Assembly: GCA_964407865.1 (NCBI GenBank) | Contig: CAYOXC010000001.1 | Coordinates: 1,103 to 65,102 of the forward strand | Length of the DNA: 64,000 nt | Direction of reading: 5' to 3' | Source: an uncultured Gammaproteobacteria bacterium | Lineage (GTDB): Bacteria > Patescibacteriota > Patescibacteriia > Magasanikbacterales > GWA2-37-8 | Shown here: piece after piece, positions 4,176-64,000 of the stretch | Layout of the letters: every line of letters starts with the position of its first letter | Position numbering within the stretch: position 1 is the stretch's first letter | Notes under the pieces: generated by a model | Database searches by the model: none | What the model was told of the DNA's origin: nothing | The model's input: the letters and a program-made list of their open reading frames with translations, nothing else | Position numbers and translations under genes: made by a program

Positions 4176-7100
4176 ATGCCAAAGACCACGCGTAAAATCC
4201 TATTATCTCTCATTTTTCTTGCCACTATCGCGGGTGGTTTGTTTTTTTCGCTTCACGTTCTTGCTCAGGAACCCCAGGGAACCATCACAGTTGATGATTT
4301 GGGTTTAGAGCCGGTAAGAGAAGGTATCGGATTGCCTGATACAGATATTCGATTAATTGCCGCTAGAATTATTCGTATCGCGCTAGGATTCCTTGGTGTA
4401 ATTGCCTTGGTTTTGATACTTTACGGCGGTTTTGTTTGGATGACGGCTGGAGGCAATGAGGAAAATATACAAAAGGCAAAAAAGATTTTATTAAACGCCA
4501 CCATAGGTCTGGCTATTATTCTTTCTGCTTACGCCATAGTTAGTTTTGTGATCAATGCTTTAGTCGGGGCGACAACCGGCGGAGGCGGCGGAGGCGGCGG
4601 AGGGGGCGGACCAGGAGCTTTTTCAAATGTTTTTTATATCACTAGCATGCCGGGCGATGATCTAGGTTGTGGCATTAGAAACATCCATCCGGTTATTGTT
4701 TTTAATAAGCCGGTTAATTTAGAGACAGTTACAAATAATTTGATTATTCGTAAAATATCCGACGGCAGTCCGGCCAATGGCGAATGGCATTTTGCCATGC
4801 CGACGGCGCAAAACAGAATTGTTTTTGATCCGATAGGAGACTGCGGTATTGATCCGCCGCAAAATGATTGTTTGGAGGCTAGTACAACTTATCAGATATA
4901 TTTTGCCAATGCTTCAAACATATTAAGCCAGGATGAACTGTCTTTAAATTGCAATGTTGGTAATTATAAAAAGCAGTGCAGTAATAATCCTTCGGTTGAA
5001 TTTACCACCGGTTCTGATGTTGACACCGAACCGCCGACAATAAACATAATCAATCCTTTTGAAGGTCAGAGTTTTCCTGAGGGGGCGGTAGTGCCGGTTG
5101 AAATGGAATATACTGATAATTTTGGACTACAAAATGTCGGTTTGTTTGTTGGTGGCGACGAGGTTAGCACTATTAACATAACCGGTTGTCAGACATCTGG
5201 CTCAGTTACATTAAATTGGCCTTCCGGAACTTCGCCTACTGGCACTTATGCTTTGTCCGGGGTAGCCACAGACAATGCTAATTTTACCGCTTCAACAACT
5301 CGTAATATTCAGCTATTACCGGCTCATTGTTATGACGATGAGCTTAATTTTGGCGAGACCCAGATTGGTCCGCCGGCCTGCGGCGACGGCTGTGGCAGTT
5401 GCGCTGGTGAATCGTGTACACAAAATAGTGACTGCGCCAGTGGTTGGTGCGAAAATGGCATTTGTATTGACCGGATGAAAATTACAGATTTTTCGCCTGA
5501 TAATGGCGCAGCTAGTACCACTTATGTATCTATAGATGGTCAATATTTTGGAGATGACGGCGGTCATGTTTATTTTAGAAAAGCGGGGACTGGTGATGAT
5601 ATTTGGACAGAAGCCTATGTGGTAAATTGCGGTGCCGGTATAGACAATTGGACACAGAGCCAGCTTGTTGTAAAAGTTCCATCCAATGCCATAACCGGCC
5701 CGATTAAAGTTGTGACCGCTTCCACTACCGGCCCAGATGATGTTGAACGTGTATTTGTTGATGTGACTGACAATGACGGCTGGGGTATCAACAAATCATT
5801 TACAGTTAACAACTCGCTCAGACCGGGTCTTTGTGCTCTACAACCAAATTATGGCCCGCCATATTCTGATACAGTTCTTTTAGGCGAGAATTTTGGTTCT
5901 ACTCAAAATAATCCAAATTTAGATAAAGTATTTTTTAGCTCTTCCACTGCTTTGATTCGTCCAGGCACTTGGGCAAACAACACGGTTATGGTCAGGGTGC
6001 CGGCGCTTGGTACCGGAGCGGTGCCGGTAAAAATTACCAATGAAGGAGTTGACAGCAACAGTGTCAGATTTTACGTAAGAGAACTGCTTGACGCCGATGT
6101 TCCGATAATTGAAAGCATTAATCCCGAATCCGGGGCTAGAGGTGAATATATCACAGTAACCGGTAAGAATTTCGGTTCACTGCTTGGTAAAGTTTTGTTT
6201 AAGTTAAATGGAACAGGGGAAGCGGTTTATGGTGATTTTAATTTTCCTGAAGAATGTGAAGGCGCGGTTTGGAGTGATAAACAAATTATTGTAAAATTTC
6301 CGACTGAAGATGTTTCTGTCGGAAATGATTATTCAGTGCAAATACAGCGATCAGACAGTGTTATCGGTCCAATTGGTGCAGAGTTTGCCCTGCAATCAGG
6401 TGATCCCGCTCCGGGCATGTGTAAAATTGATCCACCGGAAGGTCCGGTGCCTTTTGGTTCTAGCGCGGTAATGAATATTTTTGGTGAATACTATTTGCGC
6501 GGAGGAAATCCATCACGCCCTTATTTTTGGGAGACTGGGGCTTCAGCTACTACCACTGCCGGCCGCGCAGCAACCCCAGATGGAAATATAGTCGGTTTGA
6601 ACGACACTTGGGCGCAGCTTCGACCGCCAACTACCACAGAAACCGGGCCGGTAGTGATGTATAGGGCATTTGACGGTAAGATGGGCAATAGTTTGCCTTT
6701 TACTGTGTTTAATTGTATTGAAAACGACAATACTTGTTCTGACCCGGCTTATAAATGCTGTACCGGAGGCGGAGATGCTGGAATCTGCAAACCAGAAGAT
6801 GATTTGTGCGACGGTGAAACCCGTTCTACTAACTATATTTGGCGGTTTAACACCGGCCCTTTTCCGCCGACTGCTTATGTAGTTGAGCGCTGCGATAGCG
6901 AAACTGATGCCGGGCATAATTTACCCTCGCCTTCACCTAGTATCCGCTGGACTTCCGGGGGTAATTTTGACCATTTAAATGTTTGCCGTACTGCATTGGT
7001 TAATATAGAATTTTCCATGAGAATGCAGCAGAGTACGGTCAATGCCAGTAATGTTGAAATTTACAAATGCAATTCATCATCAGTGGCACTTGATGTTACT

Positions 7101-10100
7101 TATCAAACAAATAGTTGTGATCATTTAGCTGGCCCACTTTTACTATCCTCAGACAGTTATACATTAAATATTGCATCTGGAGATGAGTTTTCTACTCATG
7201 ATTATATACAAGCCAGCCTTTTAAGCGGTAGTTGGGATGATGATTCGTATTATCAGGTTGTGTTGAAACCGGGCATTAAGTCCGAGCCGACCACTTATGA
7301 GTTTGGTGGGGAGATTAGATATCTGGACGCTCAAAATCTTAAGCCAACCCGGCCCTGTGGAGATGGGACGGCTTATTGTTTTATTTTTAAAACAGATGCT
7401 AGGGCTTGCCGATTGAGTAAAGTAATTGTCACCCCGTTTGAATATTGGACCTCTGTTTTGGAAGAACCGATGAAATATCGTTCAATTAAATCCAATGGAG
7501 ATGATCCGGGCACAACCTTGTATTACCGCGGTTCAGGTTTAAGCGACCAGCACTGTATTATGATGAACATGAGCGATTATGATTGGTCTTGGTCAACTTA
7601 TCCCACGGCTCCGACAATGTACGCGGATATTTATGGCGTACCAACCGGCACGAATGGAAACATGACAGAAGTTTCCGCTTTGGCCAACACAGTCGCGGTT
7701 GGCTTGGAAGACGATTCAACACTGGTTCGAGCGCAGGCGAGCAAAGACGGCGTACATCCGGCAAATACCATCAGTGGCCTGGTGGCTTGGTGGCAGTTTG
7801 ATGAAACCAGCGGTACAAATGCTGCCGATAGCAGTGGTATGGGAAATGACGGACAGGGTAAGGGTGCTTTAAGTAACATCAGTTTTGTGCCTGGAAAGTT
7901 AGGCAATGCCTTAAATTTAAACAACAATGCTTGGCTAGAGACTTCATATAATAATTTTTCAGCAGGCTATGAACCGCGTTCGGTGTGCGCTTGGGGTAGA
8001 CCTTCAGGTATTTATACCGGATGGCATTGGATTTATTCTTATGGTAGTCCTTCGGCCGGCAGAGCGATGTTTATTGGATCTAATTTTAGAAGTCTTTATG
8101 GCGGTGGGTTTGGCTCATCAGATATTTATTATACGTATTTTTGGGTAACGCCTGGAGTTTGGAAGCATACTTGTTTAGTATTTACCGGAACACGAGGCAG
8201 GCTTTACGCCGACGGTGTTTTAGTCAGAGATTATAATCGTTATCCAGATTGGAATTTAACATATTCAAAATCATACATTGGCACACAGGTATTTCCGTCG
8301 CCTTCAGGCGAGTTTTGGCGCGGGTCAATAGATGATCTTAGAGTTTACAACAAAGCGCTTTCTCTTGATGAGGTGCAGGCAATTTATGATTATGGAATTA
8401 GCGGTACGCCTTCTTCCGGCGAATCAGTTATGGGCGAGAGTCCGTTAACTATTGATTTATCCAATCCAAAAGTAGTTGATTACTGGCCAAATTGTCTTGA
8501 AGCTTGTACCAACGCCGAAATCGGAGCGAAGTTTAATGTAATCATGGCCAATAAAAATTTTACTAACGCGATCAAGCTCGAGAAGTGTTTGGACGAGAAC
8601 TGCGCCGTAAGGGTGTCTGTTAGCGGGTTGCTCAAAGTATTAAACCCGGGCGACAGAAGAATAATTCAAATTTCCTTCGTCAATCCTTTAATTGAATTGC
8701 AACCAGACGCGATTTATCAGGTGACGCTTTCAAAAACCGGCACAACAAGCATTGACTGGTTATACCAGCTTTGGTCTGGCGCTAGTTTGGATAATGAAGC
8801 TGCATTTTCCAAACCAATGCAGGAAGAGTTTGTTTGGCGGTTTAAAACTAAAAAAGAAAAATGCACACTTGATCGAGTGGATGTTATTCCTTCAGTATTT
8901 ACCACAGTTTATGTAAACGATCGCAGTGTATATTCAGCCGAAGCGAGAAGCGCTCCGGATGCTTGCGATCCTAATGGCCAGCGCCTTAATCCTTGGGGCA
9001 TTGATTGGGATTGGCAGTCGTCTTCAACTAGCATTGCCACAGTAATGGAATTTGAAACCAAAGGTCACAGTCCGTTTTGCGAATCAAATTGTGTAAAAAA
9101 AGGTTCTGACATTGCATATGGCGAAGCGCTTTTGCCACTTTGCGGAAATAATATTGTAGAAGCTGGTGAGGATTGTGATCCATCGCAAAAAGTTGGAGAC
9201 ATCGTCACTTGCGGATTAAATTGTTTAAGACCTGGAAATGCTTCCACAACCTGCGGTAATGGGACAGTTGACCCGCTTTTTGGAGAAGAGTGCGATACAA
9301 ATGACCCGGCGACTAAAACAGGGTGTGCATCCAATTGTACTCATTTAGGATCAAATCAGGCCACTGGGGCCGAAGATGTCGGCGCTTCTATTTGCGGTAA
9401 TGGCACGATTGGTTTTGGCGAGGAGTGCGATTTGGGTGTAGCAGCAAATTATTTATCTCCCACGTCGTCGCTTAATTGTTCTGAAAATTGTCTGCATACA
9501 GGTACGCAACTTTCGGCTGTTTGGTGCGCTACTCATGCAACTGATTTTGGCGGTTTTTCAGGTGAAGAATATATTGCTACTTGCGCTAATTCAGTTAGCC
9601 AGTGCGGTGACGGTATATCCAGTCTTGATGAAGACGCTGTTTGCGAACCAGCACCAGGTGTTTTGAATTTGAATTGTACGGAAAATTGTTTAGCTAATTC
9701 TTTGGCAGTACAAAAATGCAATCCGACATCTACTGTTATGATTGGTCCTAGTCAGTGGAAGGTTGTAAAAACAGAAGGCTGTAGTTTAACCGGCCAGTAT
9801 GAAGGCTCGTCGCTTTTGTATACGGATCCATCATTGTGCGGTGATTTTGATGTTGGTACTGGCGAAGATCCAGCTTGTGAAACAGGTTTTGTAATATCTC
9901 ATACTTTTATCGACCCCTGGACTTTGGCAAGCGGAGTTGGTTTGGGTGCTCCTGCCAACGCAAGTTCGCCAATGCAAATAGCCGATATTACTGGTACAGG
10001 CATACAAACAATAGATACTACTGAATACATAAAGTCTGACAAGGGTCAGTTTATAATTCTTTGCGGTTATCAGACTGATGCTGAATGCGAGAGTGTTGCC

Positions 10101-28824: not shown

Positions 28825-28853
28825 AATATAGCACAAAATTGCCTTTTTGTCAA
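28825..28853 (-). promoter_or_regulatory. Sigma-70-like promoter for the GT4 gene
   Basis: On the minus strand: TTGACA, then a 17-nt spacer, then TATATT, ending about 20 nt before the start. Confidence 0.5.
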
Positions 28854-38272: not shown

Positions 38273-41200
38273 TTGGTTGACGATTTTTTAGGCGGTTATC
38301 CGTCAAAAGAAACGCGCTTCCTGTCAGGGTATATCATATATTTAATTATGTACAACGTTATCAAAAGAACTTTTACCTTTAGCGTTGTTGTGACGACCAT
38401 TTTATGGTCGGTCGGCGTGGCGGCTTTGATTCCGTCAGTAGCCGAGGGCGCGGTTTGTCCGACTCTCGTTGCTGGCGATATGATCAAGGTTACCGGCAAG
38501 CCGGCAATCTACGCGATGCGCAGCGACCTCAAGGTTCTGTATTTCCCTTCTGGTGATGAGTTCAAGTCATGGAGACCGACCTATGGTGGTTATGTTTCCA
38601 TTACTCAAGAGTGTTTTGATTCACTCCCAGTGCCGAGTAACTACCCGGCTGCTGTGAACTATCATCCAGGCTCATATCTTATTAAACGACCGTCATCTGA
38701 TCAGCTTTATGTTGTTCAGCCGAATAACACCAAAGCCAGAATTTCACAGAGTTTGGCTGATATTCTTTATGGATCGAACGCTTACACTGACGGTGTTGGT
38801 GCAAAAGTCATGACTGTGTCTGATGTTTTTTGGCCTCATTATATAACTGATGCGGCTGAGATCACCACAGCCACGGTGCACCCAGGCATGTTGTTCAAGG
38901 TTGAAGGCCAGGCTGCTACCTGGTATGTTGATTCTGACAACAAGCTTCGCGAAGTTTCTGCAACTGGCTTTACCGCCAATCAATTCCAGCAGAGATTTGT
39001 CCGCAGCGTTCCCGCTTCAGCCATCACCGGCATGACCACTGGTGCCATGCTTGATGCCGAGGTCCCATCAATTGTGGATAAGACTCAAAGCGGTGGCATT
39101 ACTACCACCCCGTCTGCCCAGGGCACTTTAACAGTTGCTTTGGCTGCTGACACTCCGGCTGCTATGAGCGTGCCAAAGAATGGCACACGCGTTCCGTTCA
39201 CCAGAGTCGTTTTGACCGCTGGTAGCGACAGCGCAATCAATGTGGATGTAATTACTGTTAAGAGAACTGGTTTAAGTGATTACACCGTGTTTTCTGGTGT
39301 TGGCAGCGTCTGGGCTGAGAAGAATGGCGTTCGCGTCTCTTCACAGTCTGACATGAACAGCACCGATGAGGTCAATTTGACATTCTCTCCGGTTCTTAAC
39401 ATTCCGGCCGGCACTTCAGTCACTTTGGAAATCGTTGCTTCTTTGAACAACGGCGCCGGTAATGCCGCTCTCGGCATTGCTGCTGCTTCCGCTGTTTCAA
39501 CCGGTGGCACCACCGTTGGTGGTTCCTTCCCGGTTATGGGCAACTTGATGGCCTTTGCTGATTACAGTGTCGCTACCGCTATGGTTGACTGGAATACAAC
39601 TACCAAGACTCCAAAGGTAGCTGATACAGCTGCCGATCTTGGTGAGTTTACTGTTCAGCAAACTGCCACAGTATCCAAGGATGTCATTTTTAAGAGTATT
39701 ATAATTAAGAACACCGGTGTTGAGGATATGGATGTTGCTTTGACCAATGTATATTTGGAAAAAGCTGGCGCCCAAGTTTCTTCATATGGTGTGATCGATG
39801 GCCGCTATATCACCTTCAACTTAAATGGTGGCGGACTCTTGATCGAAAAGGGAGATACCCTTTACTTCAAGATCCGAGGTGACGTTATGGCCAAAGACAG
39901 CACCACTGACCCGGCCTTCACTTTCTTCGTAAACAAGATCGAAGATGTAGATATTATTGAATCATCTACTGGTTTTGGCGCAGCCGTTACCAAGGATACT
40001 GACACCAATAACGTCAATATTACATCTGGCGCTCTGTCAATTACCAAGAAAACCACTCAGCCGGCTGACGCTGATGTCATTAAGGGTACCACTGGCAATG
40101 TTTCATTGCTTGCCAATATCCGCACTGACGAAGCTATCACTGCTGATGGCGTGAAGATTGGTTGGGAAGGCACTTCAGTGACCTCTTCCTTCCAGAATGC
40201 CAAAGTGTACTTAAATGGTTTCTTGATTGGTACATTTGACCCGGATGCTGATACCAATGCTGGTACTTACGAACTTGAGACATCTGTAACCTTCAACAAG
40301 GGTGACAACGAGCTCAAGGTCATGGTTGACGTCAAATCCACTGCCACTGCTGGCGCCACTATCAAGTTCTTGATCTCTGGTTCCAACTTTGTCAACGGCG
40401 AAGCTCCGGAATATGTTGCTTCAGGCAATCCGGTGAATCCAGCCGATGTCAATGGCAGCCCGATCGGTGCTATTATCACTGTTGAGGGTGCTGGTTTGAC
40501 TATTTCCCGCAATGATGGTTTTGCCGAAGATCGTCAGGTCGTTCATGGCACATCAGATGTTGTCTTAGGTAAATTCAATGCCAAAGCTACTAGCGATCAG
40601 GTGACTATCACTTCGGTTGAAGTAGCGGCCAATAGCGGTGCAACACCTCAAAATGCTGACACCTCTATCTATGACATGAAGATTTACGTTGACGGTGTCC
40701 AGGTTGGTTCAACTCGCGATTTCAACTCAAGCGGCGCTTCTTTCTCTGGTCTAAGTGTGATCATTCCGAAAGATGCTGTTAAGTTGTTTGAAGTGAGAGC
40801 TTCCTTTGACACTGCCGCCACCGGTTCTATCAAAACCGTCCTCACCTTTAACGGCCAAGACAGTCTCGGTAAGTCCTTAACTGGCGTTACCGGTACGACT
40901 GTTCAGAGTCTCGTTATCGGTCAAGGCGTTTTGACCTCCACTGTTGGCGCAGATACCCCGGAAGAGGCTATCATTCTCGCCAAGACTGGCGTTGAATATT
41001 CTGTTGCGACGTTTAAATTAACCTCGCAATATGATCTCGCCAATGTTACTGAAATTAGCGTGATGAATACATCAACTAATCCTTCAGACGCGAGAATTTC
41101 AGCTGTTACACTTTATGATGGCAGCACACTGTTAGGTACTGATTTCTTGGTCAACGGTACAACGACCGTGAAACTCAGCACTAACAGTTTGATAATCCCT

Positions 41201-41818
41201 GCCAATGGTTACAAGAATGTAACCTTAAAGGTCAGCTTGAACCCGATTAGTTCTGTTGAACAGAGCAGCACCACGGTCAGAATGCAGTTGACTTCACTCA
41301 AGTTCAAGGGTTCTGCCGGATCTGAGACTGTTCATACCCCAAGCACTGCCTTGGTTGGTAAGAATATGCAGATCAGAAAGACCAGACCGGTCTTTGCCGG
41401 TGTCTCTATCGGTACAACCGGTAGCCAGAGTACTGAAGAAGAAGTGCTTAAATTCACTGTCACCGCAGATACAAATGAAGAAGTTGTCATGGACAGCTTG
41501 ACATTTGTAGCGGTTGGCACTGCATCTGTCACCAACTACAAATTGTATGTTGATGGCGTTGAGAAAGCTACAGCTAGCGGTACCCCTGCCTTTACTGGTT
41601 TGGGAACCACTGTATCTGTTGCTGCTGGTCAGACCAAGACCTTCTCGGTCCGCGCCAACACCTCAGCTGTTGCAGTAGATGCGACCTTCGGTCTCTCCTT
41701 AGAGAAAGGCGTTTCCAATGGAAATATTACCTGGGCCGAATACTTTGTCGGTGGTAATAATCCTGGTGATGCAGAATTCCTGTACACCTTGCCGATCTCG
41801 AACACCAAGAAATACTAA
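38273..41818 (+). CDS. Large secreted Thr/Val/Gly/Ser-rich beta-type surface protein (S-layer or adhesin candidate) with GC3-rich codon usage
   Basis: Signal peptide at MYNVIKRTFTFSVVVTTILWSVGVAALIPSVAEGA, giving a likely start near 38348. The rest is about 1,150 aa with no Cys-rich repeats. Codons are biased to C/G-ending (ACC, GGC, GTC, TTC, AAG), unlike neighbouring genes. Confidence 0.75.
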   Translation: MVDDFLGGYPSKETRFLSGYIIYLIMYNVIKRTFTFSVVVTTILWSVGVAALIPSVAEGAVCPTLVAGDMIKVTGKPAIYAMRSDLKVLYFPSGDEFKSWRPTYGGYVSITQECFDSLPVPSNYPAAVNYHPGSYLIKRPSSDQLYVVQPNNTKARISQSLADILYGSNAYTDGVGAKVMTVSDVFWPHYITDAAEITTATVHPGMLFKVEGQAATWYVDSDNKLREVSATGFTANQFQQRFVRSVPASAITGMTTGAMLDAEVPSIVDKTQSGGITTTPSAQGTLTVALAADTPAAMSVPKNGTRVPFTRVVLTAGSDSAINVDVITVKRTGLSDYTVFSGVGSVWAEKNGVRVSSQSDMNSTDEVNLTFSPVLNIPAGTSVTLEIVASLNNGAGNAALGIAAASAVSTGGTTVGGSFPVMGNLMAFADYSVATAMVDWNTTTKTPKVADTAADLGEFTVQQTATVSKDVIFKSIIIKNTGVEDMDVALTNVYLEKAGAQVSSYGVIDGRYITFNLNGGGLLIEKGDTLYFKIRGDVMAKDSTTDPAFTFFVNKIEDVDIIESSTGFGAAVTKDTDTNNVNITSGALSITKKTTQPADADVIKGTTGNVSLLANIRTDEAITADGVKIGWEGTSVTSSFQNAKVYLNGFLIGTFDPDADTNAGTYELETSVTFNKGDNELKVMVDVKSTATAGATIKFLISGSNFVNGEAPEYVASGNPVNPADVNGSPIGAIITVEGAGLTISRNDGFAEDRQVVHGTSDVVLGKFNAKATSDQVTITSVEVAANSGATPQNADTSIYDMKIYVDGVQVGSTRDFNSSGASFSGLSVIIPKDAVKLFEVRASFDTAATGSIKTVLTFNGQDSLGKSLTGVTGTTVQSLVIGQGVLTSTVGADTPEEAIILAKTGVEYSVATFKLTSQYDLANVTEISVMNTSTNPSDARISAVTLYDGSTLLGTDFLVNGTTTVKLSTNSLIIPANGYKNVTLKVSLNPISSVEQSSTTVRMQLTSLKFKGSAGSETVHTPSTALVGKNMQIRKTRPVFAGVSIGTTGSQSTEEEVLKFTVTADTNEEVVMDSLTFVAVGTASVTNYKLYVDGVEKATASGTPAFTGLGTTVSVAAGQTKTFSVRANTSAVAVDATFGLSLEKGVSNGNITWAEYFVGGNNPGDAEFLYTLPISNTKKY

Positions 41819-58318: not shown

Positions 58319-61300
58319 ATGTCAGGTGAAAAAAATAAAAAAGATAAAAATGATCAAGTCGAATCCGTTGAACGAAATTTAATTATTCCGGAAATTATTG
58401 ATGTCGCTGATTTGACAGGCGAGAACGCTTCTTGGATTGACGATCGGGCGGAGTTTTATATTAGTCAATTACAAAAAAAATACAGCGCGGCCAAAGAACA
58501 GTATCCTTTACTTAATGAATTGGGCGCCAAAACATTAGAAAAAAAATTTACTCAGTGGCCAGGTGAAATTAGCGATACCAGAGAGGAGCTTTTTGATACC
58601 TGGGAAGAAGCAGTCAACGCAAAAAATAAAGACGGAGATGTTCCGAAGGCTACCCTGAAAAAAATAAATGCTCTAGCCATGAAGTTAAATGATTATTTTT
58701 CACGAATTGAAAAACAGGGAATAGTTGGTGGACATGAGAAAATAGACATGAGCGTCACAGAATCTTTTGAAGAAGAGGGTTTAAAGTCAGTCGAAAAAGG
58801 CATCGCTTCCGGGCGCGATGACATTAATCGGTGCCGAGAATCGTTTGAGTTGATAGAATCGTCGGTTTACAAAGAGCTTTACGACGAAAAGTTTTTGCGC
58901 CAGTTGACCGATTTTGCCAAGCGTCTAGGTGTTGTTGAAGGCTGGCTAAACCAGCTTGAACAGGCAAAGGACACAATAAAAGCTCGAATACAAAAAGAAA
59001 CATTGTCTGACGATCAGGTTCAGGAAATGTTTGATAATTTATCAGCAATAAAAGATAGTGTAAAAAATAATTTAGAAGCTTTGCGTCGCGGTGTTGAGCG
59101 GGTAAGAAAAGATGTTGAAAAGGGCAAAGAGGAGCGTCATAAGCTGGTTGGCAGAGTAGAGGCTTTGATAGACCGTATTGAAGCCAGGGGTCAATCCGGA
59201 TTTTTTGCCGGAAAAGACATGGCCAAGGTGGCTCGGTTTATGGTGGAACGGCTTAAACAAATGAAAGAGAAACCTTTGGATATTCAGTCAGTCAAATTGG
59301 CAGAAAAAGAAGCGGAGGAAACCATATTTGCCCCAGAAATAAAATCAGATGAAAAAAAGGAAAAAATGGACATTCTTTATTTTTGGAAGAGAAGAGTGCT
59401 GGATGAAAAAAAGCGCATTGATACAATGATCGCTGAATTCGAAATAGCGCAAGATACTCTGAGGAAATCTTCAAAACAAATTCAAGATCGCCTAGCTAAA
59501 GTAGGCAAAGCCTTATCGGCAGCTAGCGGCCGAAATGACCTGCTGAATCAGGCTCTTGATTCCATAAATACACCAAAGGAAGAATCTCTGGTAGATATAA
59601 AATTTCAACTAGATGCATATAAAGATGAATATTTAGCGGCAGAAAAAGCCTATGATCAATTGTCGCCTGAATTAGCCAAAGCAACTCTTGCCAATCTACA
59701 GCCGAAAATCATGTCAGTTTTATCAGCGGCCAATAAAAATTTTATTACCGCTAGTCAAAAAACAATGATTGAGGGATGGCAGACTGTTTTTAACAAAGGT
59801 GGTGAATTTACATTGGAAGAGGTAAATAATTTTTCAGAAAAACTTAAAGATGTTATGGATTCGTTGGGTGAAAAGCAAAGAGAATATATGTCAAAAGTAG
59901 AAGCTGATTTAAAAGAAAAAGCGCTCGAGAGCGAATTTATGGCCAAAGGTGAAAAGATGGATTTACAAAAGAAAGAATTTATTCCTTTAAAATCAGCTAA
60001 GCCGGAAGCCAGAGTTTCAGCTAAAACAGAAGAAGAGTTTTTTGGTGAAAAAGTTTTTACTCCGGCAGTTGAGCGAAAAATCGGTCGATCTGAAGTGCTT
60101 ACAAGTATAAAGGATATGTTTGAAGAACAGGGTGTGATCGATTTGGAACCGGAAAAAATTCTTTCAGCTTTAACTCCGGCAGAACTTAGTTCACTCATAG
60201 AAAATGTAAAAGAGGATGCCAAAGAAAAGGCGGATAGTAATCGTGACATATTTGAGAGATCGTTGAGAAGTATTTTAAACGAACGTTTGCTCCAAGCGCT
60301 AGATGCTGAAAAGCGAGAAAAAATATCCAGTGATGTTTCCGCTCAAGCGTATTCATTGTTGAAAGGCGCAGTTGAAGCTGAAGCACAGAAGCAATTAGCC
60401 AAGCTGCAATCAGGTGAGGCGAGTAAATTAGCTAAAGCAGGAAAAATCGGAGCAAAATTAGCCGCAAATGTTGGGTTGGCGGCTGGTATTGGTATTGGCG
60501 CGGGATTGGTGATTGGTTCAGGCGGAGCGGCGGCTGCTGTAGCTGGTGCCTCCATAGCTTTTACGCGCCTGGCTAATAAAGCCATCGCTAAGTCAGAAAT
60601 TTTTCAAGCGGCCAAGGAAAAAGTTTCTTCTTTGTGGGGAAAAACCGCCGGCAAACTATTTAAAAAGGAAAAATCGCCGTTTGACACAGATAAAATTTTG
60701 GAGGAAACGACTAATAAATTTATTAATCCAGAAATTGTAGCGGCAATCCTATCAAATCAGTTGAGAGAAAACTCTAGCCAGGAATTGCTCCGAGCGGTAA
60801 ATGCGTACGGTTCGGCAAAGTCTGAAGCCATGCACAAACCATCGGTTGGTTCAATTGAAAAATTTGAATCATCTCTAGATGACGTTTCTAAAGAGTTTTA
60901 CAAAAAATCATACAATTACTTAGCCATGTTTTATAAGAATGATAATTTACCCGAAGAAACATTGGCTAAAATGGCGCTGCAGATGACATTGAATTTAAGT
61001 ATTTATCAACGCAATGAAGTTAAGCTCTTAGAAACGCTTGAGGCTGATAAAGTCAAAAATAAATTACCGGAAGAAAAGCATTGGCTGGTTGGTAGAATGG
61101 AGCATTTTATGAAATTTCGCTCTGAGGGCGTTGGATCAGTATTGTTTGGCGGTGCATTGGCTTATGCTGTTTCTGAAACAACTTCGGCTGGCCGGGTGGT
61201 TTCGGGTGCCTTAGCTGGAGCTGGATTGGGCCTTATGCTAGAGAGGAAAACACGCAAATCAGAAGAGGAAAAATTGCATAAAGTTGTCGAAGATATTATT

Positions 61301-62851
61301 AATCGAACTGAAAAGAAATTGTTTGGTAAGGATGCCGTAATTTTAGACAGCGAGCTGGTAAAGGCGAAAAAAGATGCCGCTTATATAAGAGCGCAGATTG
61401 ACGCTGGTGTTTTTGAACGTAATGATATGCTAAAAAATAGGGCGGAAAATTTTGTTGTTAGAGTAAATCAGGAAATGATGAAAACCTATGAGGCGCCCAA
61501 GTTTTCAATAGACGATTTACTTAAAGATGTCAGCAAGCACTCAAAATTAATGGAAAAAGAAACAGCTAAAACTTTTAAAAAGACATCTGAAGCGTTTAAA
61601 ACAAAAGATCGCGCTTTGGCATATATGACTGTCGGCGTTTTAGTCGGCGGAGCAGCAGGATACCTTGGCGCTCGGCTTACGCAATACATTAGAGGCCCGA
61701 AGGCAGAAGAAATAAGATTAGTGGAAGCTCCAACAGAAGCATCAAGGCCGGGTTTTGTTTATGCTCCGACAGAAAAAATTACACCGACTGAAACTCCACT
61801 TGAGCCAGTTTCGCCTCCGACACCGCTAGAACCGACACCGGCGCCGACTGAAGGTGTTGAAGAGATAACCATGCCAACGGAACACGTTAGGGTGTCGCGT
61901 GGAGGAGCGGGTAGATCTATTGAGCAAGCTGTGGAAAAAGCACCGCCAATTCTTAGTCGGGCTCATGAAGAAGCCGTGACTAAAGCGGGCGAACCTATTG
62001 AGGTATCTGAAGTTTATCGCGCATCTATTTATGAGTGGCCCAAAAAAGAACCGTTATTTTTTACTCGTGAAGAAGAATTAAAAATAAATGAGTTGACTGA
62101 AAAGGGCGAAGTCGAAGCGTTGGCTGAATTTATGACCAAAGCAAAATCACGCGGTCAGATTTATGAAGATTTAAAAACAGGCAAGCAGTATCATGCTGAT
62201 GAATTGATTATCGCATCAGAAACATCAGAACCAGAAGTAGAAGAAGTAGTAGTTTCTGAAGAGCCACTTGAGCAAGCAAGAGAAAATTCGGAAAATCCAT
62301 ACAATGAACCAGATATTGTAAAAACTGAAAATGAAGCCAAAGAGCCTGAAACCGAAATTGAGGAAGAAAACAAAATTGTTAATCCTTATGATTTGCCTGA
62401 AAATAAACCAGAGGCAGAGATGGAGAGGGCTGGTGCTGAAGATTCAGGCGAGTCAGATCAAAGTGCGCCAAATGATCAAGACGCACAAGTAGAGCCGGCT
62501 GAACAAAATTTAAGAGAACAGGCGGTTGAGGAAGTTGAGTCTGCCAAAGCACGCGAAGCAAAAGCGGATGAAGAAGATCTTGAAGCCGACGAAGAGATTA
62601 GAAGAGAGGCGGAAGAGTATACTGAAGCAGCGACAAAGCGCATGGTTCAAGAGTTGTCGGAAAAGCCACGTCAGGCTTACGATTGGCTTGATACCAACGA
62701 AGACAATACCAAACTAACTCTGGACGAGAGAGCTGCTGTTAAAGATTTAAAGAATCAGTTTGTCAAAGATATGATCGACGATATGAATATTAAAAAATCT
62801 CTCTTAGACAAGATAGAAAAATTAAAAACAAGAGTAGAATTTGAACTGTAA
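58319..62851 (+). CDS. Large (1,510 aa) coiled-coil-rich protein with central Gly/Ala-rich hydrophobic segments and an acidic C-terminus
   Basis: Long K/E-rich heptad-like stretches. Three hydrophobic Gly/Ala segments (KLAANVGLAAGIGIGAGLVIGSGGAAAAVAGASIAF, SVLFGGALAYAVSE...ALAGAGLGLML, YMTVGVLVGGAAGYLGARL). A Pro/Thr linker and a Glu-rich tail. Confidence 0.7.
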   Translation: MSGEKNKKDKNDQVESVERNLIIPEIIDVADLTGENASWIDDRAEFYISQLQKKYSAAKEQYPLLNELGAKTLEKKFTQWPGEISDTREELFDTWEEAVNAKNKDGDVPKATLKKINALAMKLNDYFSRIEKQGIVGGHEKIDMSVTESFEEEGLKSVEKGIASGRDDINRCRESFELIESSVYKELYDEKFLRQLTDFAKRLGVVEGWLNQLEQAKDTIKARIQKETLSDDQVQEMFDNLSAIKDSVKNNLEALRRGVERVRKDVEKGKEERHKLVGRVEALIDRIEARGQSGFFAGKDMAKVARFMVERLKQMKEKPLDIQSVKLAEKEAEETIFAPEIKSDEKKEKMDILYFWKRRVLDEKKRIDTMIAEFEIAQDTLRKSSKQIQDRLAKVGKALSAASGRNDLLNQALDSINTPKEESLVDIKFQLDAYKDEYLAAEKAYDQLSPELAKATLANLQPKIMSVLSAANKNFITASQKTMIEGWQTVFNKGGEFTLEEVNNFSEKLKDVMDSLGEKQREYMSKVEADLKEKALESEFMAKGEKMDLQKKEFIPLKSAKPEARVSAKTEEEFFGEKVFTPAVERKIGRSEVLTSIKDMFEEQGVIDLEPEKILSALTPAELSSLIENVKEDAKEKADSNRDIFERSLRSILNERLLQALDAEKREKISSDVSAQAYSLLKGAVEAEAQKQLAKLQSGEASKLAKAGKIGAKLAANVGLAAGIGIGAGLVIGSGGAAAAVAGASIAFTRLANKAIAKSEIFQAAKEKVSSLWGKTAGKLFKKEKSPFDTDKILEETTNKFINPEIVAAILSNQLRENSSQELLRAVNAYGSAKSEAMHKPSVGSIEKFESSLDDVSKEFYKKSYNYLAMFYKNDNLPEETLAKMALQMTLNLSIYQRNEVKLLETLEADKVKNKLPEEKHWLVGRMEHFMKFRSEGVGSVLFGGALAYAVSETTSAGRVVSGALAGAGLGLMLERKTRKSEEEKLHKVVEDIINRTEKKLFGKDAVILDSELVKAKKDAAYIRAQIDAGVFERNDMLKNRAENFVVRVNQEMMKTYEAPKFSIDDLLKDVSKHSKLMEKETAKTFKKTSEAFKTKDRALAYMTVGVLVGGAAGYLGARLTQYIRGPKAEEIRLVEAPTEASRPGFVYAPTEKITPTETPLEPVSPPTPLEPTPAPTEGVEEITMPTEHVRVSRGGAGRSIEQAVEKAPPILSRAHEEAVTKAGEPIEVSEVYRASIYEWPKKEPLFFTREEELKINELTEKGEVEALAEFMTKAKSRGQIYEDLKTGKQYHADELIIASETSEPEVEEVVVSEEPLEQARENSENPYNEPDIVKTENEAKEPETEIEEENKIVNPYDLPENKPEAEMERAGAEDSGESDQSAPNDQDAQVEPAEQNLREQAVEEVESAKAREAKADEEDLEADEEIRREAEEYTEAATKRMVQELSEKPRQAYDWLDTNEDNTKLTLDERAAVKDLKNQFVKDMIDDMNIKKSLLDKIEKLKTRVEFEL

Positions 62852-62875
62852 TTATTCAGAAATTAATAAAAATAT

Positions 62876-62908
62876 AAAGGATCGCTCAAAGGCGTTCCTT
62901 TTTATTTT
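62876..62908 (+). terminator. Candidate terminator after the 1,510-aa gene
   Basis: AAGGAtCGC-tcaaag-GCGtTCCTT followed by TTTTATTTT. Confidence 0.4.
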
Positions 62909-63014
62909 AAGCGTTTAAGCGCGAGGGTCGTAGGCCTTATGCGCGGTTGACCCAGCATAATCTCCTGTAGCTATGCCGGGTTGACTCGGTAAAGCTATTA
63001 GAAGCTCTACTGTA

Positions 63015-63043
63015 TTGACAAAAAAGCTAAAATGTGCTATATT
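63015..63043 (+). promoter_or_regulatory. Canonical promoter for the FHA-domain gene
   Basis: TTGACA, then a 17-nt spacer, then TATATT. A 16-bp perfect palindrome AAGAGCATATGCTCTT (63061-63076) and an AAAGGAGG ribosome-binding site (63104-63111) lie downstream. Confidence 0.55.
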
Positions 63044-63119
63044 TTGCTGTTATGCTTAATAAGAGCATATGCTCTTTACAATAGGCAAAAGGTAAAAACC
63101 CTTAGAAAGGAGGCCTTGA

Positions 63120-64000
63120 ATGACGGATGAAAAGAAAAAGAGGCGTCCGACAAGGGCGTTTCCCAAGGGTGAGGTGAGAGCCTCGCCCGTTTCTGAATTG
63201 GAAACAGATGGCGGTGGCAACAGGGAAGACCTCGCTGCTTTGCGAGGCAGAACGCTTCCGCCTCCGCCAACAGGGGGTTATCATCACAGACCTCGGCCAA
63301 CGTCCGGGGTTCTCGGTCGTGTATCGTTTGCGGGAGACCCGAACGATGCCGCTGATGTGCGGAGCTTCGTCTGCAGTCTTGCCGCGCAATTTCCCGATGA
63401 AGCCGAAGAGATCAAAAGGTCTTTTGGTGTAATTGCGGATATTGCCGACGGTAAGCAGGTGGAGCCCTTGGTGCCAACCGCATTACCGCCACCGCCAGAC
63501 GGCACGTTTTCAGACGACCGTTTGACGAACGGGACGATTCATTTGTCCCAGTTGTTTGTCGAGCGGATTGGCGGTGATGAAGAGAAAGTGTCCGAAGACG
63601 TCCCGAGAGTGGTGCTCATCACCATGCTCGGTATGTTTCGGGCCCCGATAATCGGACGGGTCAAAATCGGCCGAGCATTGGACAACGATGTGGTGGTGGA
63701 AGACAATCCGTTTGTCTCCAAGCATCACGTCATGATTGAAGTGGTCGGTGATAGAGTAATGATCTGTGACATGAATTCCAAAAATGGCACACTGGTTAAC
63801 GGTGAAAAGTTGTCTGGTGTGCGAGAGCTTACGGATAAGGACTCTATTTTTTTGGGCGATGAAATGCGGGGCGCAAAGATTTTTTTCAGCAACCCGCGAA
63901 TCGATAAAAAAAACGACGAGCAGCCGGTCGCGTTCAGTGTGCCGGAGAAAGGAATTGAAATGATGGACAACGATAAGAAGGCGCCGCCGCCGTTGCGAGA
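63120..64000 (+). CDS. FHA-domain protein, 5' partial (runs off the window); not listed in the supplied ORF track
   Basis: ATG 8 nt after AAAGGAGG. The frame is open for 293 codons to the window end. The FHA signature is GRVKIGRALDNDVVVEDNPFVSKHHVMIEVVGDRVMICDMNSKNGTLVNGEKL...IFLGD. The N-terminal region is Pro-rich. GC is about 55-60%, against about 30-40% in neighbouring genes. Confidence 0.75.
   Translation, partial: MTDEKKKRRPTRAFPKGEVRASPVSELETDGGGNREDLAALRGRTLPPPPTGGYHHRPRPTSGVLGRVSFAGDPNDAADVRSFVCSLAAQFPDEAEEIKRSFGVIADIADGKQVEPLVPTALPPPPDGTFSDDRLTNGTIHLSQLFVERIGGDEEKVSEDVPRVVLITMLGMFRAPIIGRVKIGRALDNDVVVEDNPFVSKHHVMIEVVGDRVMICDMNSKNGTLVNGEKLSGVRELTDKDSIFLGDEMRGAKIFFSNPRIDKKNDEQPVAFSVPEKGIEMMDNDKKAPPPLR

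What the first reader, a model, noticed from the sequence alone, without database searches (positions are those of the whole stretch)
62860..64000. Abrupt GC jump at the window's 3' end with an FHA-domain gene that the ORF track missed
From about 62,900 the sequence rises to about 55-60% GC, against about 30-40% elsewhere. A consensus promoter, a 16-bp perfect palindrome and a strong ribosome-binding site lead into an ORF (63120 onward) that stays open to the last base. It encodes a Pro-rich N-terminus followed by a textbook FHA domain (GR.KIGR...D.VV.D..VSK.H..I......V.I.D..S.NGT.VNG.KL). The ORF track lists only minus-strand shadow ORFs here, because the real gene has no stop within the window. 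FHA proteins partner Ser/Thr kinases and phosphatases or secretion systems (T6SS/T3SS). Together with the compositional discontinuity, this suggests a horizontally acquired island or a chimeric junction.
Basis: seen in the sequence. Interest (0 to 1): 0.55.

Follow-up and report, generated by a model that had tools for sequence, protein, structure and literature searches.

The report
Conserved GC-rich envelope genes in CPR bacterium
The GC jump and the FHA gene are real, not an assembly error or a recent foreign insert: the gene opens a roughly 9-kb cluster of cell-envelope genes whose coding regions alone have stayed far more GC-rich than the rest of the genome across many related ultra-small (CPR) bacteria, and no ordinary explanation accounts for that.

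Summary
The sustained GC rise starts at the ATG (63,120), not at 62,900. It is 53% in the window against a 40.8% mean. The promoter, 16-bp palindrome, RBS and FHA domain (Pfam E=4e-16) are all present.

Two public contigs identical to the window extend it. The gene encodes a 675-aa protein with a cytoplasmic FHA domain, one TM helix and a Cys-containing outer domain. A coiled-coil/8-strand beta-barrel protein and an Asp-repeat lipoprotein follow, both about 60% GC.

The junction is not chimeric and not strain-specific. In all 9 other Magasanikbacteria-like CPR lineages examined (core proteins 68-76% identical in those compared), the same gene order crosses the same boundary, and GC3 rises there too.

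In the loci that cover it, the block has six genes. Its high GC is confined to coding sequence, and spacers stay at 26-44% GC. Four-fold sites are near saturation, equally in core and block, so the offset is actively maintained. No integrase, att repeats, phage or plasmid matches, kinase, phosphatase or secretion genes were found.

The FHA gene itself is ordinary. The conserved, CDS-only GC-rich envelope cluster, with OMP-like barrels in a supposedly monoderm lineage, is unusual. Its cause is unresolved.

The parts
58319..62851 (+). Last gene of native composition (1510 aa, GC 40%, GC3 0.33). It is a conserved CPR membrane/coiled-coil protein that always precedes the FHA gene.
   Evidence: ORF listed. 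No Pfam hit. Homologues of 1319-1697 aa occur in Patescibacteria/Magasanikbacteria MAGs. It lies immediately upstream of the FHA-protein gene in all loci. One TM-like segment.
62869..62908 (+). Terminator-like hairpin followed by a T-run, after the 1510-aa gene.
   Evidence: Inverted repeat I1: 17-nt arms, 88% complementary, 6-nt loop. Sequence followed by TTTTTATTTT. The simple terminator scan did not flag it.
63015..63043 (+). Sigma-70-type promoter TTGACA-17 nt-TATATT with an extended -10 TG.
   Evidence: 11 of 12 positions match. The -35, TG and -10 elements are conserved in the orthologous spacers of L003, L005, L008 and L009. Native genes of the window use the same promoter type, for example at 28853 on the minus strand.
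63044..63107 (+). Conserved 5' leader. It contains TGTTATGCTT and the 16-bp palindrome AAGAGCATATGCTCTT (63061-63076), followed by TACAA and an A-rich tract.
   Evidence: Palindrome shown. The sequence block is conserved in 5 genomes, but the palindrome is perfect only here. A GCTCTTT(A/G)-type motif recurs in the leaders of other block genes. No consensus RNA structure or covariation was found. No Rfam match was found when the overlapping contig L002, which is identical to this stretch, was searched.
63108..63113 (+). Shine-Dalgarno sequence AGGAGG, 6 nt before the ATG.
   Evidence: Read directly from the sequence.
63120..64000 (+). First 293 of 675 codons of the FHA-domain single-pass membrane protein. 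This is the first gene of the GC-rich block.
   Evidence: Translation. The full gene is read on L001 and L002, which are identical to the window over 5714 and 2546 nt. GC is 53% in the window and 59% for the whole gene; GC3 is 0.58 and 0.675. The single TM helix lies at about aa 489-518, beyond the window.
63660..63857 (+). FHA (forkhead-associated, phosphothreonine-binding) domain, aa 181-246.
   Evidence: Pfam PF00498, E=4.1e-16, full-length match to positions 1-67 of 67. The closest solved relatives are the FHA domains of Rv1747 and EmbR. GR and SxxH are conserved in orthologues.

Best explanation
What is there. The window ends inside the first gene of a conserved, chromosomal, vertically inherited gene block. 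In the loci that cover it, the block has about six genes over roughly 9 kb. The genome belongs to a Candidate Phyla Radiation bacterium related to 'Candidatus Magasanikbacteria'.

The first gene (shown). It encodes a 675-aa protein made of:
- a proline-rich N-terminus;
- an FHA domain;
- a long Pro/Glu linker;
- one transmembrane helix;
- a roughly 150-aa C-terminal region with a short conserved segment (about 60 aa) carrying invariant cysteines.

The other genes (shown). They encode two proteins with a signal peptide, a coiled coil and a C-terminal 8-strand beta-barrel ending in Phe. They also encode two lipoproteins with long Asp-Ser/Thr repeats and Cys-rich domains, and a small membrane protein.

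Proposed function (inferred). The FHA protein is a phosphorylation-dependent transmembrane adaptor. Its cytoplasmic FHA domain would bind a phosphothreonine on a partner that is still unidentified. Its outer domain would contact the co-encoded envelope proteins, coupling signalling to a surface structure, perhaps one used in host attachment. The FHA module is accessory: three related lineages keep the TM and outer domain but lack it.

The GC jump (shown). It is a property of the coding sequences of this block only. Each CDS has GC3 of about 0.6-0.9, while its promoter, leader, terminator and even 600-700-nt non-coding stretches inside the block keep the genome's low GC.

How the offset persists (shown, then inferred). 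The offset recurs at the same gene boundary in all related lineages. Synonymous sites between the lineages compared are nearly saturated, so the offset is actively maintained and is not a fading trace of foreign origin (shown under a simple model). The most likely force (inferred) is selection acting on the transcribed or translated sequence itself, meaning mRNA or codon composition. A regional mutation bias or regional biased gene conversion is less likely. The ultimate origin of the block may still be an ancient transfer from a GC-rich diderm.
For: Junction real. L001 and L002, from two other sequencing runs, are identical to the window and continue it.

Synteny. The order SmpB / 266 aa / ~366 aa / DUF5663 / ~65 aa / ~1500 aa / FHA-TM protein / barrel protein / ... 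is found in L005-L010, L025, L026, L027 and L029. L003 holds the end of the ~1500-aa gene and the next two genes in the same order.

Same GC step in every locus, from per-gene values:
- window: GC3 0.33 rising to 0.68-0.74;
- L005: 0.36 to 0.73-0.84;
- L008: 0.38 to 0.71-0.81;
- L009: 0.46 to 0.63-0.81;
- L025: 0.54 to 0.79-0.91 in the six complete genes that follow (a seventh, truncated gene has 0.66);
- L026: 0.48 to 0.57-0.77;
- L027: 0.53 to 0.71-0.76;
- L003: 0.42 to 0.49-0.53;
- L029: 0.30 to 0.43.

Return to background. In L009 GC falls back after about 9 kb.

Restricted to coding sequence. In the metagene profile GC is 0.31-0.42 upstream, at least 0.6 from about 40 nt into the CDS, and 0.39 just after the stop. 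Short spacers are 0.34-0.44. Stretches of 600-700 nt of non-coding DNA inside the block are 26-38% GC in L005 and L008.

Global codon flip. AAA:AAG goes from 76:24 to 25:75, TTT:TTC from 86:14 to 37:63, and TTA from 30% to 3% of Leu codons. Folded domains are affected as well.

Co-divergence. Pairwise identities give the same L008+L009 grouping in core genes (0.68-0.76; 0.9 for L008-L009) and in block genes (0.25-0.44; 0.49-0.64). Normalised excess identity at four-fold sites is alike in core and block, 0.06-0.15 against 0.04-0.13 for the deep pairs.

Passive decay excluded. Under an F81-type relaxation the ancestral GC4 offset would have to be 0.54-1.33, against a possible maximum of 0.41-0.62.

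Native promoters. They are conserved across genomes and of the same type as those of native genes.

Protein anatomy. FHA domain; one TM helix in all orthologues; conserved C-terminal Cys domain, and loss of FHA in L003 and in L026 and L027. The barrel model has 8 strands with pLDDT about 70-80 in that part. Its Foldseek hits are mostly outer-membrane barrels such as OmpA-TM, OmpX, Ail, OpcA and PcoB, but also include the soluble PsbO subunit of photosystem II. The C-terminal Phe is conserved.
Against: No experiment or expression data exist, and the selective agent is unidentified.

GC1 and GC2 and the amino-acid composition are also shifted. This looks like a nucleotide-level pressure rather than pure codon selection.

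The spacers are mostly functional elements (terminator, promoter, leader), so their low GC could partly reflect constraint.

The size of the offset varies widely between close relatives: L029 and L003 are small, the window and L004 are large. This could also be read as amelioration in progress.

The saturation argument rests on a simple substitution model and a few hundred sites.

The downstream end of the block is seen only in L009. For the window's own organism only the first two genes and the start of the third are seen.

No kinase or phosphatase partner was found, so the FHA role is inferred from family knowledge alone.

The barrel prediction rests on a 3-sequence alignment (mean pLDDT 65) and weak Foldseek E-values of about 1e-3.
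Confidence: 0.6

Rival explanations
1. Ancient horizontal transfer from a GC-rich diderm bacterium (about 60-65% GC), before these CPR lineages diverged. The block is simply still ameliorating, with no active force.
For: GC1/GC2/GC3 of the block genes (about 0.63/0.45/0.70) are what established codon-position relations predict for a genome of about 62% GC, and the native genes fit about 40% (the relations are from general knowledge).

The block proteins have diderm-type features: Sec signal peptides, lipoboxes, and a beta-barrel with terminal Phe.

The best weak hits outside the lineage point to GC-rich sources. The FHA domain hits a Corallococcus protein. The Cys-rich repeats hit contigs of 63-73% GC.

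L003 and L029 have much smaller offsets, as expected if decay is further advanced there.
Against: Four-fold sites between lineages are nearly randomised. Passive decay from any possible starting GC would leave a smaller offset than is observed.

Non-coding DNA inside the block is fully native in composition while synonymous sites are not.

The barrel family has only 14 cluster representatives among 1.84 billion, and every named one is a Patescibacteria MAG.
Confidence: 0.12
2. GC-biased gene conversion. The block is a recombination hot spot for surface-protein genes, comparable to antigenic-variation loci, and repeated conversion drives GC up.
For: The Borrelia vls cassettes are a precedent: about 49% GC in a 28.6% GC genome, held there by their role in gene conversion (PMC11499132).

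The block contains two paralogous pairs and long repeats.

Its proteins evolve much faster than core proteins, with 25-44% against 68-76% identity.

The shift affects all three codon positions and both G- and C-ending codons, as a nucleotide-level drive would.
Against: Conversion tracts should not stop at start and stop codons, yet 600-700-nt internal non-coding stretches stay at 26-38% GC.

The FHA gene and the small TM gene have no paralogue.

There is no silent-cassette array and no strong GC skew: about 0-0.15 against 0.52 in vls.

To my knowledge (not checked here), published bacterial gBGC effects are only a few GC3 points.
Confidence: 0.15
3. A recently acquired genomic island specific to this genome.
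For: Abrupt GC and codon-usage change. The tmRNA gene, a common island target, lies 8 kb upstream.
Against: The block is present at the same position in all ten lineages sampled. It co-diverges with the core. It has no integrase, transposase, att repeats, or phage or plasmid similarity. Low-GC conserved genes lie between the tmRNA gene and the block.
Confidence: 0.02
4. An assembly chimera joining a low-GC and a high-GC organism at about 62.9-63.1 kb.
For: The composition change is sharp and lies in an intergenic region.
Against: Two other runs assemble the identical junction. JGI, ENA, NCBI and Logan assemblies of other species carry the same junction on contigs up to 732 kb. The spacer itself aligns across species.
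Confidence: 0.01

Closest known systems
FHA-domain single-pass membrane proteins of envelope machines: T3SS YscD/PrgH, T6SS TagH/Fha1, mycobacterial FhaB/FipA (Rv0019c), Myxococcus GltG
   Same: A cytoplasmic FHA domain is joined through one TM helix to an extracytoplasmic part. The gene sits among envelope-protein genes. Domain-level similarity is clear (Pfam FHA E=4e-16; sub-threshold NCBIfam hits to TagH, FhaB and GltG).
   Different: All family-level scores are far below their cut-offs: 43 vs 120, 42.5 vs 125 and 34.6 vs 650 bits. No T3SS, T6SS, gliding or kinase/phosphatase genes lie nearby. The N-terminal and C-terminal regions matched no known protein family outside the FHA domain. The FHA domain is dispensable in some orthologues.
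Classical horizontally acquired genomic island
   Same: A sharply bounded segment of several kb with atypical GC and codon usage, encoding surface proteins.
   Different: It has no mobility genes, att repeats or adjacent tRNA. It is present in all relatives and co-diverges with the core. Only the CDSs are atypical, while the spacers are native. The composition has not ameliorated despite near-saturated synonymous divergence.
Borrelia vls antigenic-variation locus (GC-rich locus maintained in an AT-rich genome)
   Same: A surface-protein locus about 20 GC points above its genome, conserved as such across species, and taken to be under selection for its composition (PMC11499132).
   Different: This block has no silent cassettes, no strong GC skew and no G-runs. 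It holds six unrelated gene families, including a cytoplasmic-domain FHA protein. It is chromosomal, and there is no evidence of segmental gene conversion.
Small 8-stranded outer-membrane beta-barrels (OmpA TM domain, OmpX, Ail, OpcA) and coiled-coil-plus-barrel envelope tethers (OmpM/SlpA type, trimeric autotransporters)
   Same: The second block gene is predicted to have a signal peptide, a roughly 280-aa helical stalk and a C-terminal 8-strand barrel ending in Phe. Most of its Foldseek hits are OM barrels.
   Different: There is no sequence-family membership. There is no SLH or OmpA-C domain. The organism belongs to a group described as monoderm (PMC8871954). The model is of moderate confidence only.

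Membership tests
FHA domain (Pfam PF00498) | Profile match above the curated cut-off | tested here: met
   59.6 bits against a cut-off of 20.7, E=4.1e-16, covering profile positions 1-67 of 67.
FHA domain (Pfam PF00498) | Phosphothreonine-binding residues (Gly-Arg, Ser-x-x-His, Asn-Gly) | tested here: met
   IGR, SKHH and NG(T) are present in the window protein. GR and SxxH are conserved in the L005, L008 and L009 orthologues, while the NG Asn varies.
T6SS TagH/Fha (TIGR03354) | Family-level profile score and T6SS core genes in the neighbourhood | tested here: not met
   43 bits against a cut-off of 120.25. No T6SS genes lie in the 64-kb window or within the 10 kb fetched downstream in relatives, which is about 3-10 kb beyond the FHA gene.
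T3SS YscD/PrgH | YscD cytoplasmic domain plus periplasmic ring-building domains and T3SS neighbours | tested here: not met
   PF16697 scores 39.4 bits (cut-off 33.2), but on the same residues as the stronger FHA hit. No T3SS genes are nearby, and the C-terminal region gave no family match.
FhaB/FipA (NF049868) and GltG (NF033760) | Equivalog score above the cut-off | tested here: not met
   42.5 against 125 bits and 34.6 against 650 bits.
FHA/STPK/PP2C signalling module | Ser/Thr kinase or PP2C phosphatase encoded nearby | tested here: not met
   No Pkinase or PP2C domain was found in any ORF of at least 100 aa in the window that was scanned, or in the genes of the related loci. The 3643-aa ORF at 4176-15107 was not scanned. 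The rest of the genome was not available.
Horizontally acquired genomic island | Atypical composition and codon usage relative to the genome | tested here: met
   GC 59-60% against 40%, GC3 0.68-0.74 against 0.29-0.40.
Horizontally acquired genomic island | Mobility genes, flanking direct repeats, or insertion at a tRNA/tmRNA | tested here: not met
   No integrase, transposase or phage families. No repeat of 11 nt or longer is shared between the two boundaries in L009. The tmRNA gene lies 8 kb away, with conserved low-GC genes in between.
Horizontally acquired genomic island | Patchy distribution among relatives, or phylogeny discordant with the core | tested here: not met
   Present at the same boundary in all ten lineages sampled. 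Identity pattern and four-fold-site divergence parallel the core.
Assembly chimera | Junction not reproduced in independent assemblies | tested here: not met
   The junction is identical in contigs from two other runs and orthologous in assemblies from JGI, ENA, NCBI and Logan. Read-pair mapping itself cannot be done with these tools.
Outer-membrane beta-barrel protein (for the second gene of the block) | Signal peptide, even-numbered antiparallel TM strands closing a barrel, C-terminal aromatic beta-signal | tested here: inconclusive
   An N-terminal hydrophobic signal-like segment and a conserved terminal Phe are present. The AF2 model has 8 strands at pLDDT about 70-80. Foldseek hits are mostly OM barrels, but with E about 1e-3 and low TM-scores. 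No Pfam or NCBIfam OMP family matches.

The most novel reading that the evidence does not exclude
The six GC-rich coding sequences are kept in a 'foreign' codon dialect because they are decoded in a different context from the rest of the genome. In the extreme form they are expressed inside, or assembled by, a GC-rich diderm host of this episymbiont, in a T-DNA-like manner. That would explain at once the universal sigma-70 promoters, the Sec signal peptides, the lipoboxes, and an OMP-type barrel with a terminal-Phe beta-signal in a lineage thought to lack an outer membrane and BAM. A milder form is a rare-codon regulon, in which translation is gated by tRNA availability during host attachment.
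Probability: 0.04. Interest if true: 0.95.

Novelty: new variant of a known kind. Interest (0 to 1): 0.7.

Why it matters
Composition-based methods treat a GC or codon-usage outlier as a sign of recent transfer or of a mis-join. Here an outlier of about 20 GC points (GC3 +0.3 to +0.45 in most lineages) is neither. It is a conserved, vertically inherited, CDS-only feature that has persisted through near-saturating synonymous divergence in several CPR lineages.

If this holds up, it matters in four ways:
- It is a clean natural case for asking what can hold a handful of genes at a different compositional equilibrium in a small bacterial genome: selection on mRNA or codons, or biased conversion.
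- It warns against discarding such regions during MAG curation.
- It points to a lineage-specific envelope module: an FHA-TM adaptor, coiled-coil/beta-barrel proteins and Asp-repeat Cys-rich lipoproteins. This module may be central to the surface biology of these uncultured episymbionts.
- OMP-like barrels in a supposedly monoderm group bear on how CPR cell envelopes are built.

Tried and rejected
Searches and tools that gave nothing:
- Two scans of GTDB species-representative genomes found no relative, one with the FHA protein and one with the barrel-family alignment.
- The first metagenome scan also found none.
- The second metagenome scan, with the Cys-rich lipoprotein alignment, gave one true partial block (L011). 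Its other hits only share Cys-rich repeats on unrelated high-GC contigs.
- The word-indexed search with the full FHA protein was swamped by generic FHA proteins and missed the true orthologues. They were recovered through synteny instead.
- The 48-aa start of the third gene found no match in a concatenated query.
- The look-up of P0021 found no contig, because the gene call on record has a different start.
- No polymorphism was available for a mutation-spectrum test. Assemblies of the same species from different samples were 100% identical.
- Three literature searches found no description of this phenomenon or of FHA proteins in this context.

Uninformative results:
- RNAalifold on the FHA leader gave no consensus structure and no covariation, and Rfam gave no match. 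The palindrome is therefore not claimed as an RNA element.
- The single-sequence AlphaFold model of the FHA protein was unusable (pLDDT 41), apart from its TM helix.

Readings considered and rejected:
- Prophage or plasmid origin: PHROGs, phage DNA and plasmid tblastn searches were all negative.
- att-type repeats at the block ends: none found.
- Amino-acid composition alone as the cause of high GC: GC3 and GC4 carry the largest shift, and folded domains are shifted too.
- Ordinary translational selection in highly expressed genes: L20, L35 and IF3 in the same loci deviate by at most about 0.1 GC3.
- DGR-type adenine mutagenesis: the coding strand is not A-depleted, and AT skew is positive.
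Full report
CHECK OF THE OBSERVATION

The last 881 nt of the window (63120-64000) are 53.3% GC. The window mean is 40.8%, with an SD of 3.4% for windows of this length, and this is the highest such window in the 64 kb. In 200-nt windows the region reaches 0.45-0.61. One-kb windows elsewhere span 0.33-0.49.

The sustained rise starts at the start codon (63120), not at about 62,900. The spacer 62852-63119 is 38% GC and has only a 57% GC patch at 62910-62965.

The other elements are all in place:
- The promoter TTGACA-17-TATATT with an upstream TG lies at 63015-63043 and matches 11 of 12 positions.
- The perfect 16-bp palindrome lies at 63061-63076.
- AGGAGG lies at 63108-63113.
- An ORF is open from 63120 to the last base.
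- It carries a full-length FHA domain at aa 181-246, PF00498, E=4.1e-16.

Codon position 3 of this ORF is 58% GC. All 41 other ORFs of the window have GC3 0.29-0.40, with one exception at 0.47. The ORF list shows only short ORFs here because ORFs that run off the window are not listed.

EXTENDING THE WINDOW

The upstream 1510-aa protein and the FHA protein are both on record on public contigs. L001 (SRR14492173, 8.5 kb) and L002 (SRR14492171, 5.8 kb) are 100% identical to the window over 5714 and 2546 nt, and both continue beyond it.

They show three things:
- The FHA gene is 675 codons long, 59% GC, with GC1/2/3 of 0.64/0.46/0.68.
- A 286-nt spacer of 36% GC follows, and then a 490-codon gene of 60% GC with GC3 0.74.
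- After a further spacer comes the start of a lipoprotein gene with Asp-rich repeats.

The 1510-aa gene just upstream is 40% GC with GC3 0.33. The identical proteins also occur on an NCBI contig of 463,612 bp, presumably the source of the window.

WHAT THE ORGANISM IS

The window carries ordinary bacterial core genes. These include HisRS, FtsA, FtsZ, NrdR, pyruvate kinase, SHMT, FolD, CysRS, LigA, BipA, PPDK, L20, IF3, SmpB, a tmRNA gene and type IV pilus genes. It also carries families typical of the Candidate Phyla Radiation (T4SS_pilin PF18895, DUF5663, DUF5667).

Homologues of the 1510-aa protein come from Patescibacteria MAGs. One is named Candidatus Magasanikbacteria, GCA_026396515.1.

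THE DECISIVE COMPARISON

I fetched the loci around homologues of the 1510-aa protein and of the 490-aa protein. The fetched loci were L003, L004, L005/6/7, L008, L009/10, L025, L026, L027 and L029, plus the partial L011. They come from JGI, ENA, NCBI and Logan assemblies, on contigs up to 732 kb.

The loci that span the region share the order SmpB(-) / 266 aa / ~366 aa / DUF5663 / ~65 aa / ~1450-1700 aa / FHA-TM protein / ~450-490-aa protein / .... L003 starts inside the ~1500-aa gene and keeps the same order from there. L004 and L011 are fragments that lie wholly inside the block.

In all nine loci that span the boundary, GC steps up between the large protein gene and the next gene:
- L005: GC3 0.36 rising to 0.73-0.84.
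- L008: 0.38 to 0.71-0.81.
- L009: 0.46 to 0.63-0.81.
- L025: 0.54 to 0.79-0.91 in the six complete genes that follow, with a seventh, truncated gene at 0.66.
- L026: 0.48 to 0.57-0.77.
- L027: 0.53 to 0.71-0.76.
- L003: 0.42 to 0.49-0.53.
- L029: 0.30 to 0.43.

In L009 the high-GC stretch ends after about 9 kb, and the next gene is back at about 44-50%. The junction is therefore neither a chimera nor a strain-specific insertion. Assemblies of the same species from different samples are identical.

CONTENT OF THE BLOCK

1. The FHA protein. It has a Pro-rich N-terminus, an FHA domain, a Pro/Glu-rich linker, one TM helix (aa ~489-518 here) and a C-terminal region of about 150 aa with a short conserved Cys-containing segment (about 60 aa). 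Orthologues in L003, L026 and L027 keep the TM helix and the C-terminal domain but lack the FHA domain.
2. A protein with a signal peptide, about 280 aa of helical coiled coil and a C-terminal 8-strand beta-barrel ending in a conserved Phe. The AlphaFold model has pLDDT of about 70-80 in the barrel. Foldseek hits are mostly outer-membrane barrels, at weak E-values, alongside the soluble PsbO subunit of photosystem II.
3. A lipoprotein with long Asp-Ser/Thr repeats and a Cys-rich C-terminus.
4. A small membrane protein on the opposite strand.
5. A second coiled-coil/barrel protein.
6. A second Asp-repeat lipoprotein with Cys-rich repeats.

Apart from FHA, nothing reaches a Pfam, NCBIfam or PHROGs threshold. 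The barrel family has only 14 representatives among 1.84 billion clusters, and all the named ones are Patescibacteria MAGs. No kinase, PP2C phosphatase, T3SS or T6SS gene was found in the window or in the related loci.

THE NATURE OF THE GC OFFSET

It is a whole-codon-table flip, not a matter of a few preferred codons. AAA:AAG goes from 76:24 to 25:75, TTT:TTC from 86:14 to 37:63, ATA from 27% to 4% of Ile codons, and TTA from 30% to 3% of Leu codons. There is a parallel shift toward Ala/Pro/Asp/Glu/Val/Arg and away from Ile/Asn/Tyr/Lys. Folded domains show it as well.

It is confined to coding sequence. Averaged over 17 gene starts and 16 gene ends, GC is 0.31-0.42 upstream of the ATG. It reaches at least 0.6 by about 40 nt into the gene and falls to 0.39 right after the stop codon. 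Short spacers are 34-44% GC. Non-coding stretches of 600-700 nt inside the block in L005 and L008 are 26-38% GC.

The spacers carry native-type promoters. The FHA promoter and leader align across five genomes, and native genes of the window use the same promoter type.

VERTICAL INHERITANCE AND ACTIVE MAINTENANCE

Core proteins of the window organism, L005 and L008/L009 are 68-76% identical, and L008 against L009 is about 90%. Block proteins are 25-44% identical, and 49-64% for L008-L009. The relationships are the same, but the block evolves faster.

At four-fold degenerate sites of identical amino acids, identity is only slightly above the compositional expectation. The normalised excess is the same in core and block: 0.06-0.15 against 0.04-0.13 for the deep pairs, and 0.25 against 0.27 for L008-L009. 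Block and flanks therefore have the same age of divergence.

Under a simple F81-type relaxation, a passively decaying offset would need an ancestral GC4 excess of 0.54-1.33. At most 0.41-0.62 is possible. Something keeps these coding sequences GC-rich.

A regional mutation bias or regional biased gene conversion is hard to reconcile with the AT-rich non-coding DNA inside the block. Ordinary translational selection is too weak, because L20, L35 and IF3 deviate by at most about 0.1 in GC3.

I therefore favour selection on the transcribed or translated sequence. This is an inference, and the agent is unknown. The shift in GC1, GC2 and amino-acid usage, together with the wide spread of offsets among close relatives, remains unexplained by it.

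COMPARISON WITH WHAT IS KNOWN

The protein is an FHA-domain single-pass membrane protein. It works most like YscD/PrgH, TagH, FhaB/FipA or GltG, but it is a member of none of them, because all family scores are far below their cut-offs and the expected neighbours are absent.

As a compositional feature, the block meets only one of the criteria for a genomic island, namely atypical composition. It fails on mobility genes, boundaries and distribution.

The nearest precedent for a GC-rich surface-protein locus maintained in an AT-rich genome is the Borrelia vls system, at 49% against 28.6% GC (PMC11499132). That system has silent cassettes and strong GC skew, both absent here.

OMP-like barrels are unexpected in a group whose described members are monoderm (PMC8871954). 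I found no paper describing this block.

VERDICT

The chimera reading is refuted. The 'acquired island' reading holds only in the weak sense that an ancient transfer cannot be excluded.

The FHA gene itself is an ordinary new member of a known domain family. The conserved, CDS-restricted, actively maintained GC-rich envelope cluster is an unusual variant of a compositional island and deserves follow-up.

Limits:
- There are no expression or population data.
- The downstream boundary is seen in one relative only.
- The barrel fold rests on a shallow alignment.
- The phospho-partner of the FHA domain is unknown.

Noticed in passing
window 63044-63107; L002 5618; L005 14814, 21728; L008 21612, 22881; L009 15056, 17029, 21238, 22459; L011 1686, 2998: A GCTC(T/C)TT(A/G/T)-type motif recurs in the 5' leaders of several different block genes in several genomes. 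It is often preceded by a complementary (A)AGAGC at a variable distance and followed by an A-rich tract. In the 64-kb window it occurs only once on the plus strand, upstream of the FHA gene. It could be a shared regulatory site for the block. No covariation or Rfam match was found.
   Followed up: partly
L003 2128-3243; L026 9187-9789; L027 10404-10979: The orthologues of the FHA protein in three related lineages lack the FHA domain entirely but keep the TM helix and the Cys-containing C-terminal domain. The FHA module has therefore been gained or lost within the family.
   Followed up: partly
L005 21060-21756: About 700 nt of 26-38% GC non-coding DNA inside the GC-rich block. It carries three copies of nearly the same strong promoter (TTGACAAAA..AAAATGTGCTATAAT), arranged divergently between the small membrane-protein gene and the second barrel gene.
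   Followed up: partly
L008 21701-22303 and 22308-22739: The second coiled-coil/barrel gene is split into two adjacent ORFs in L008, whereas it is a single 331-352-aa gene in L009 and L005. This could be a pseudogene, a sequencing error or programmed recoding.
   Followed up: no
L009 20428-20826: The called plus-strand ORF here (a GGTTGG-repeat peptide) is probably spurious. In L005 and L008 the GC-rich stretch at this position encodes the small membrane protein on the minus strand.
   Followed up: no
window 38273-41818: The only other ORF of the window with raised GC3 (0.47, 1181 aa). It has weak PEGA and Laminin_G_3 hits and is probably another surface protein. Whether it shares the block's compositional pressure was not examined.
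   Followed up: no
window 4176-15107: A giant 3643-aa ORF of native composition. It follows a T4SS_pilin/Big_5 protein and precedes two TSP3-repeat proteins. So surface or secreted proteins as such are not GC-rich in this genome.
   Followed up: no
window 54873-55270 (minus strand): A tmRNA gene with the tag peptide ARAFSPSLNLAPALV, next to smpB (55285-55734). It lies 8 kb upstream of the GC step and is separated from it by conserved low-GC genes.
   Followed up: partly
L005 3714-4100 and L008 2728-3135 (minus strand): A small 128-135-aa gene next to PPDK has GC3 of about 0.6 in two relatives, well above their background. It has no orthologue in the window.
   Followed up: partly
window 62910-62965: A 56-nt patch of 57% GC with an imperfect inverted repeat (62937-62960) in the otherwise AT-rich spacer. 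It is not conserved in L005, L008 or L009.
   Followed up: partly
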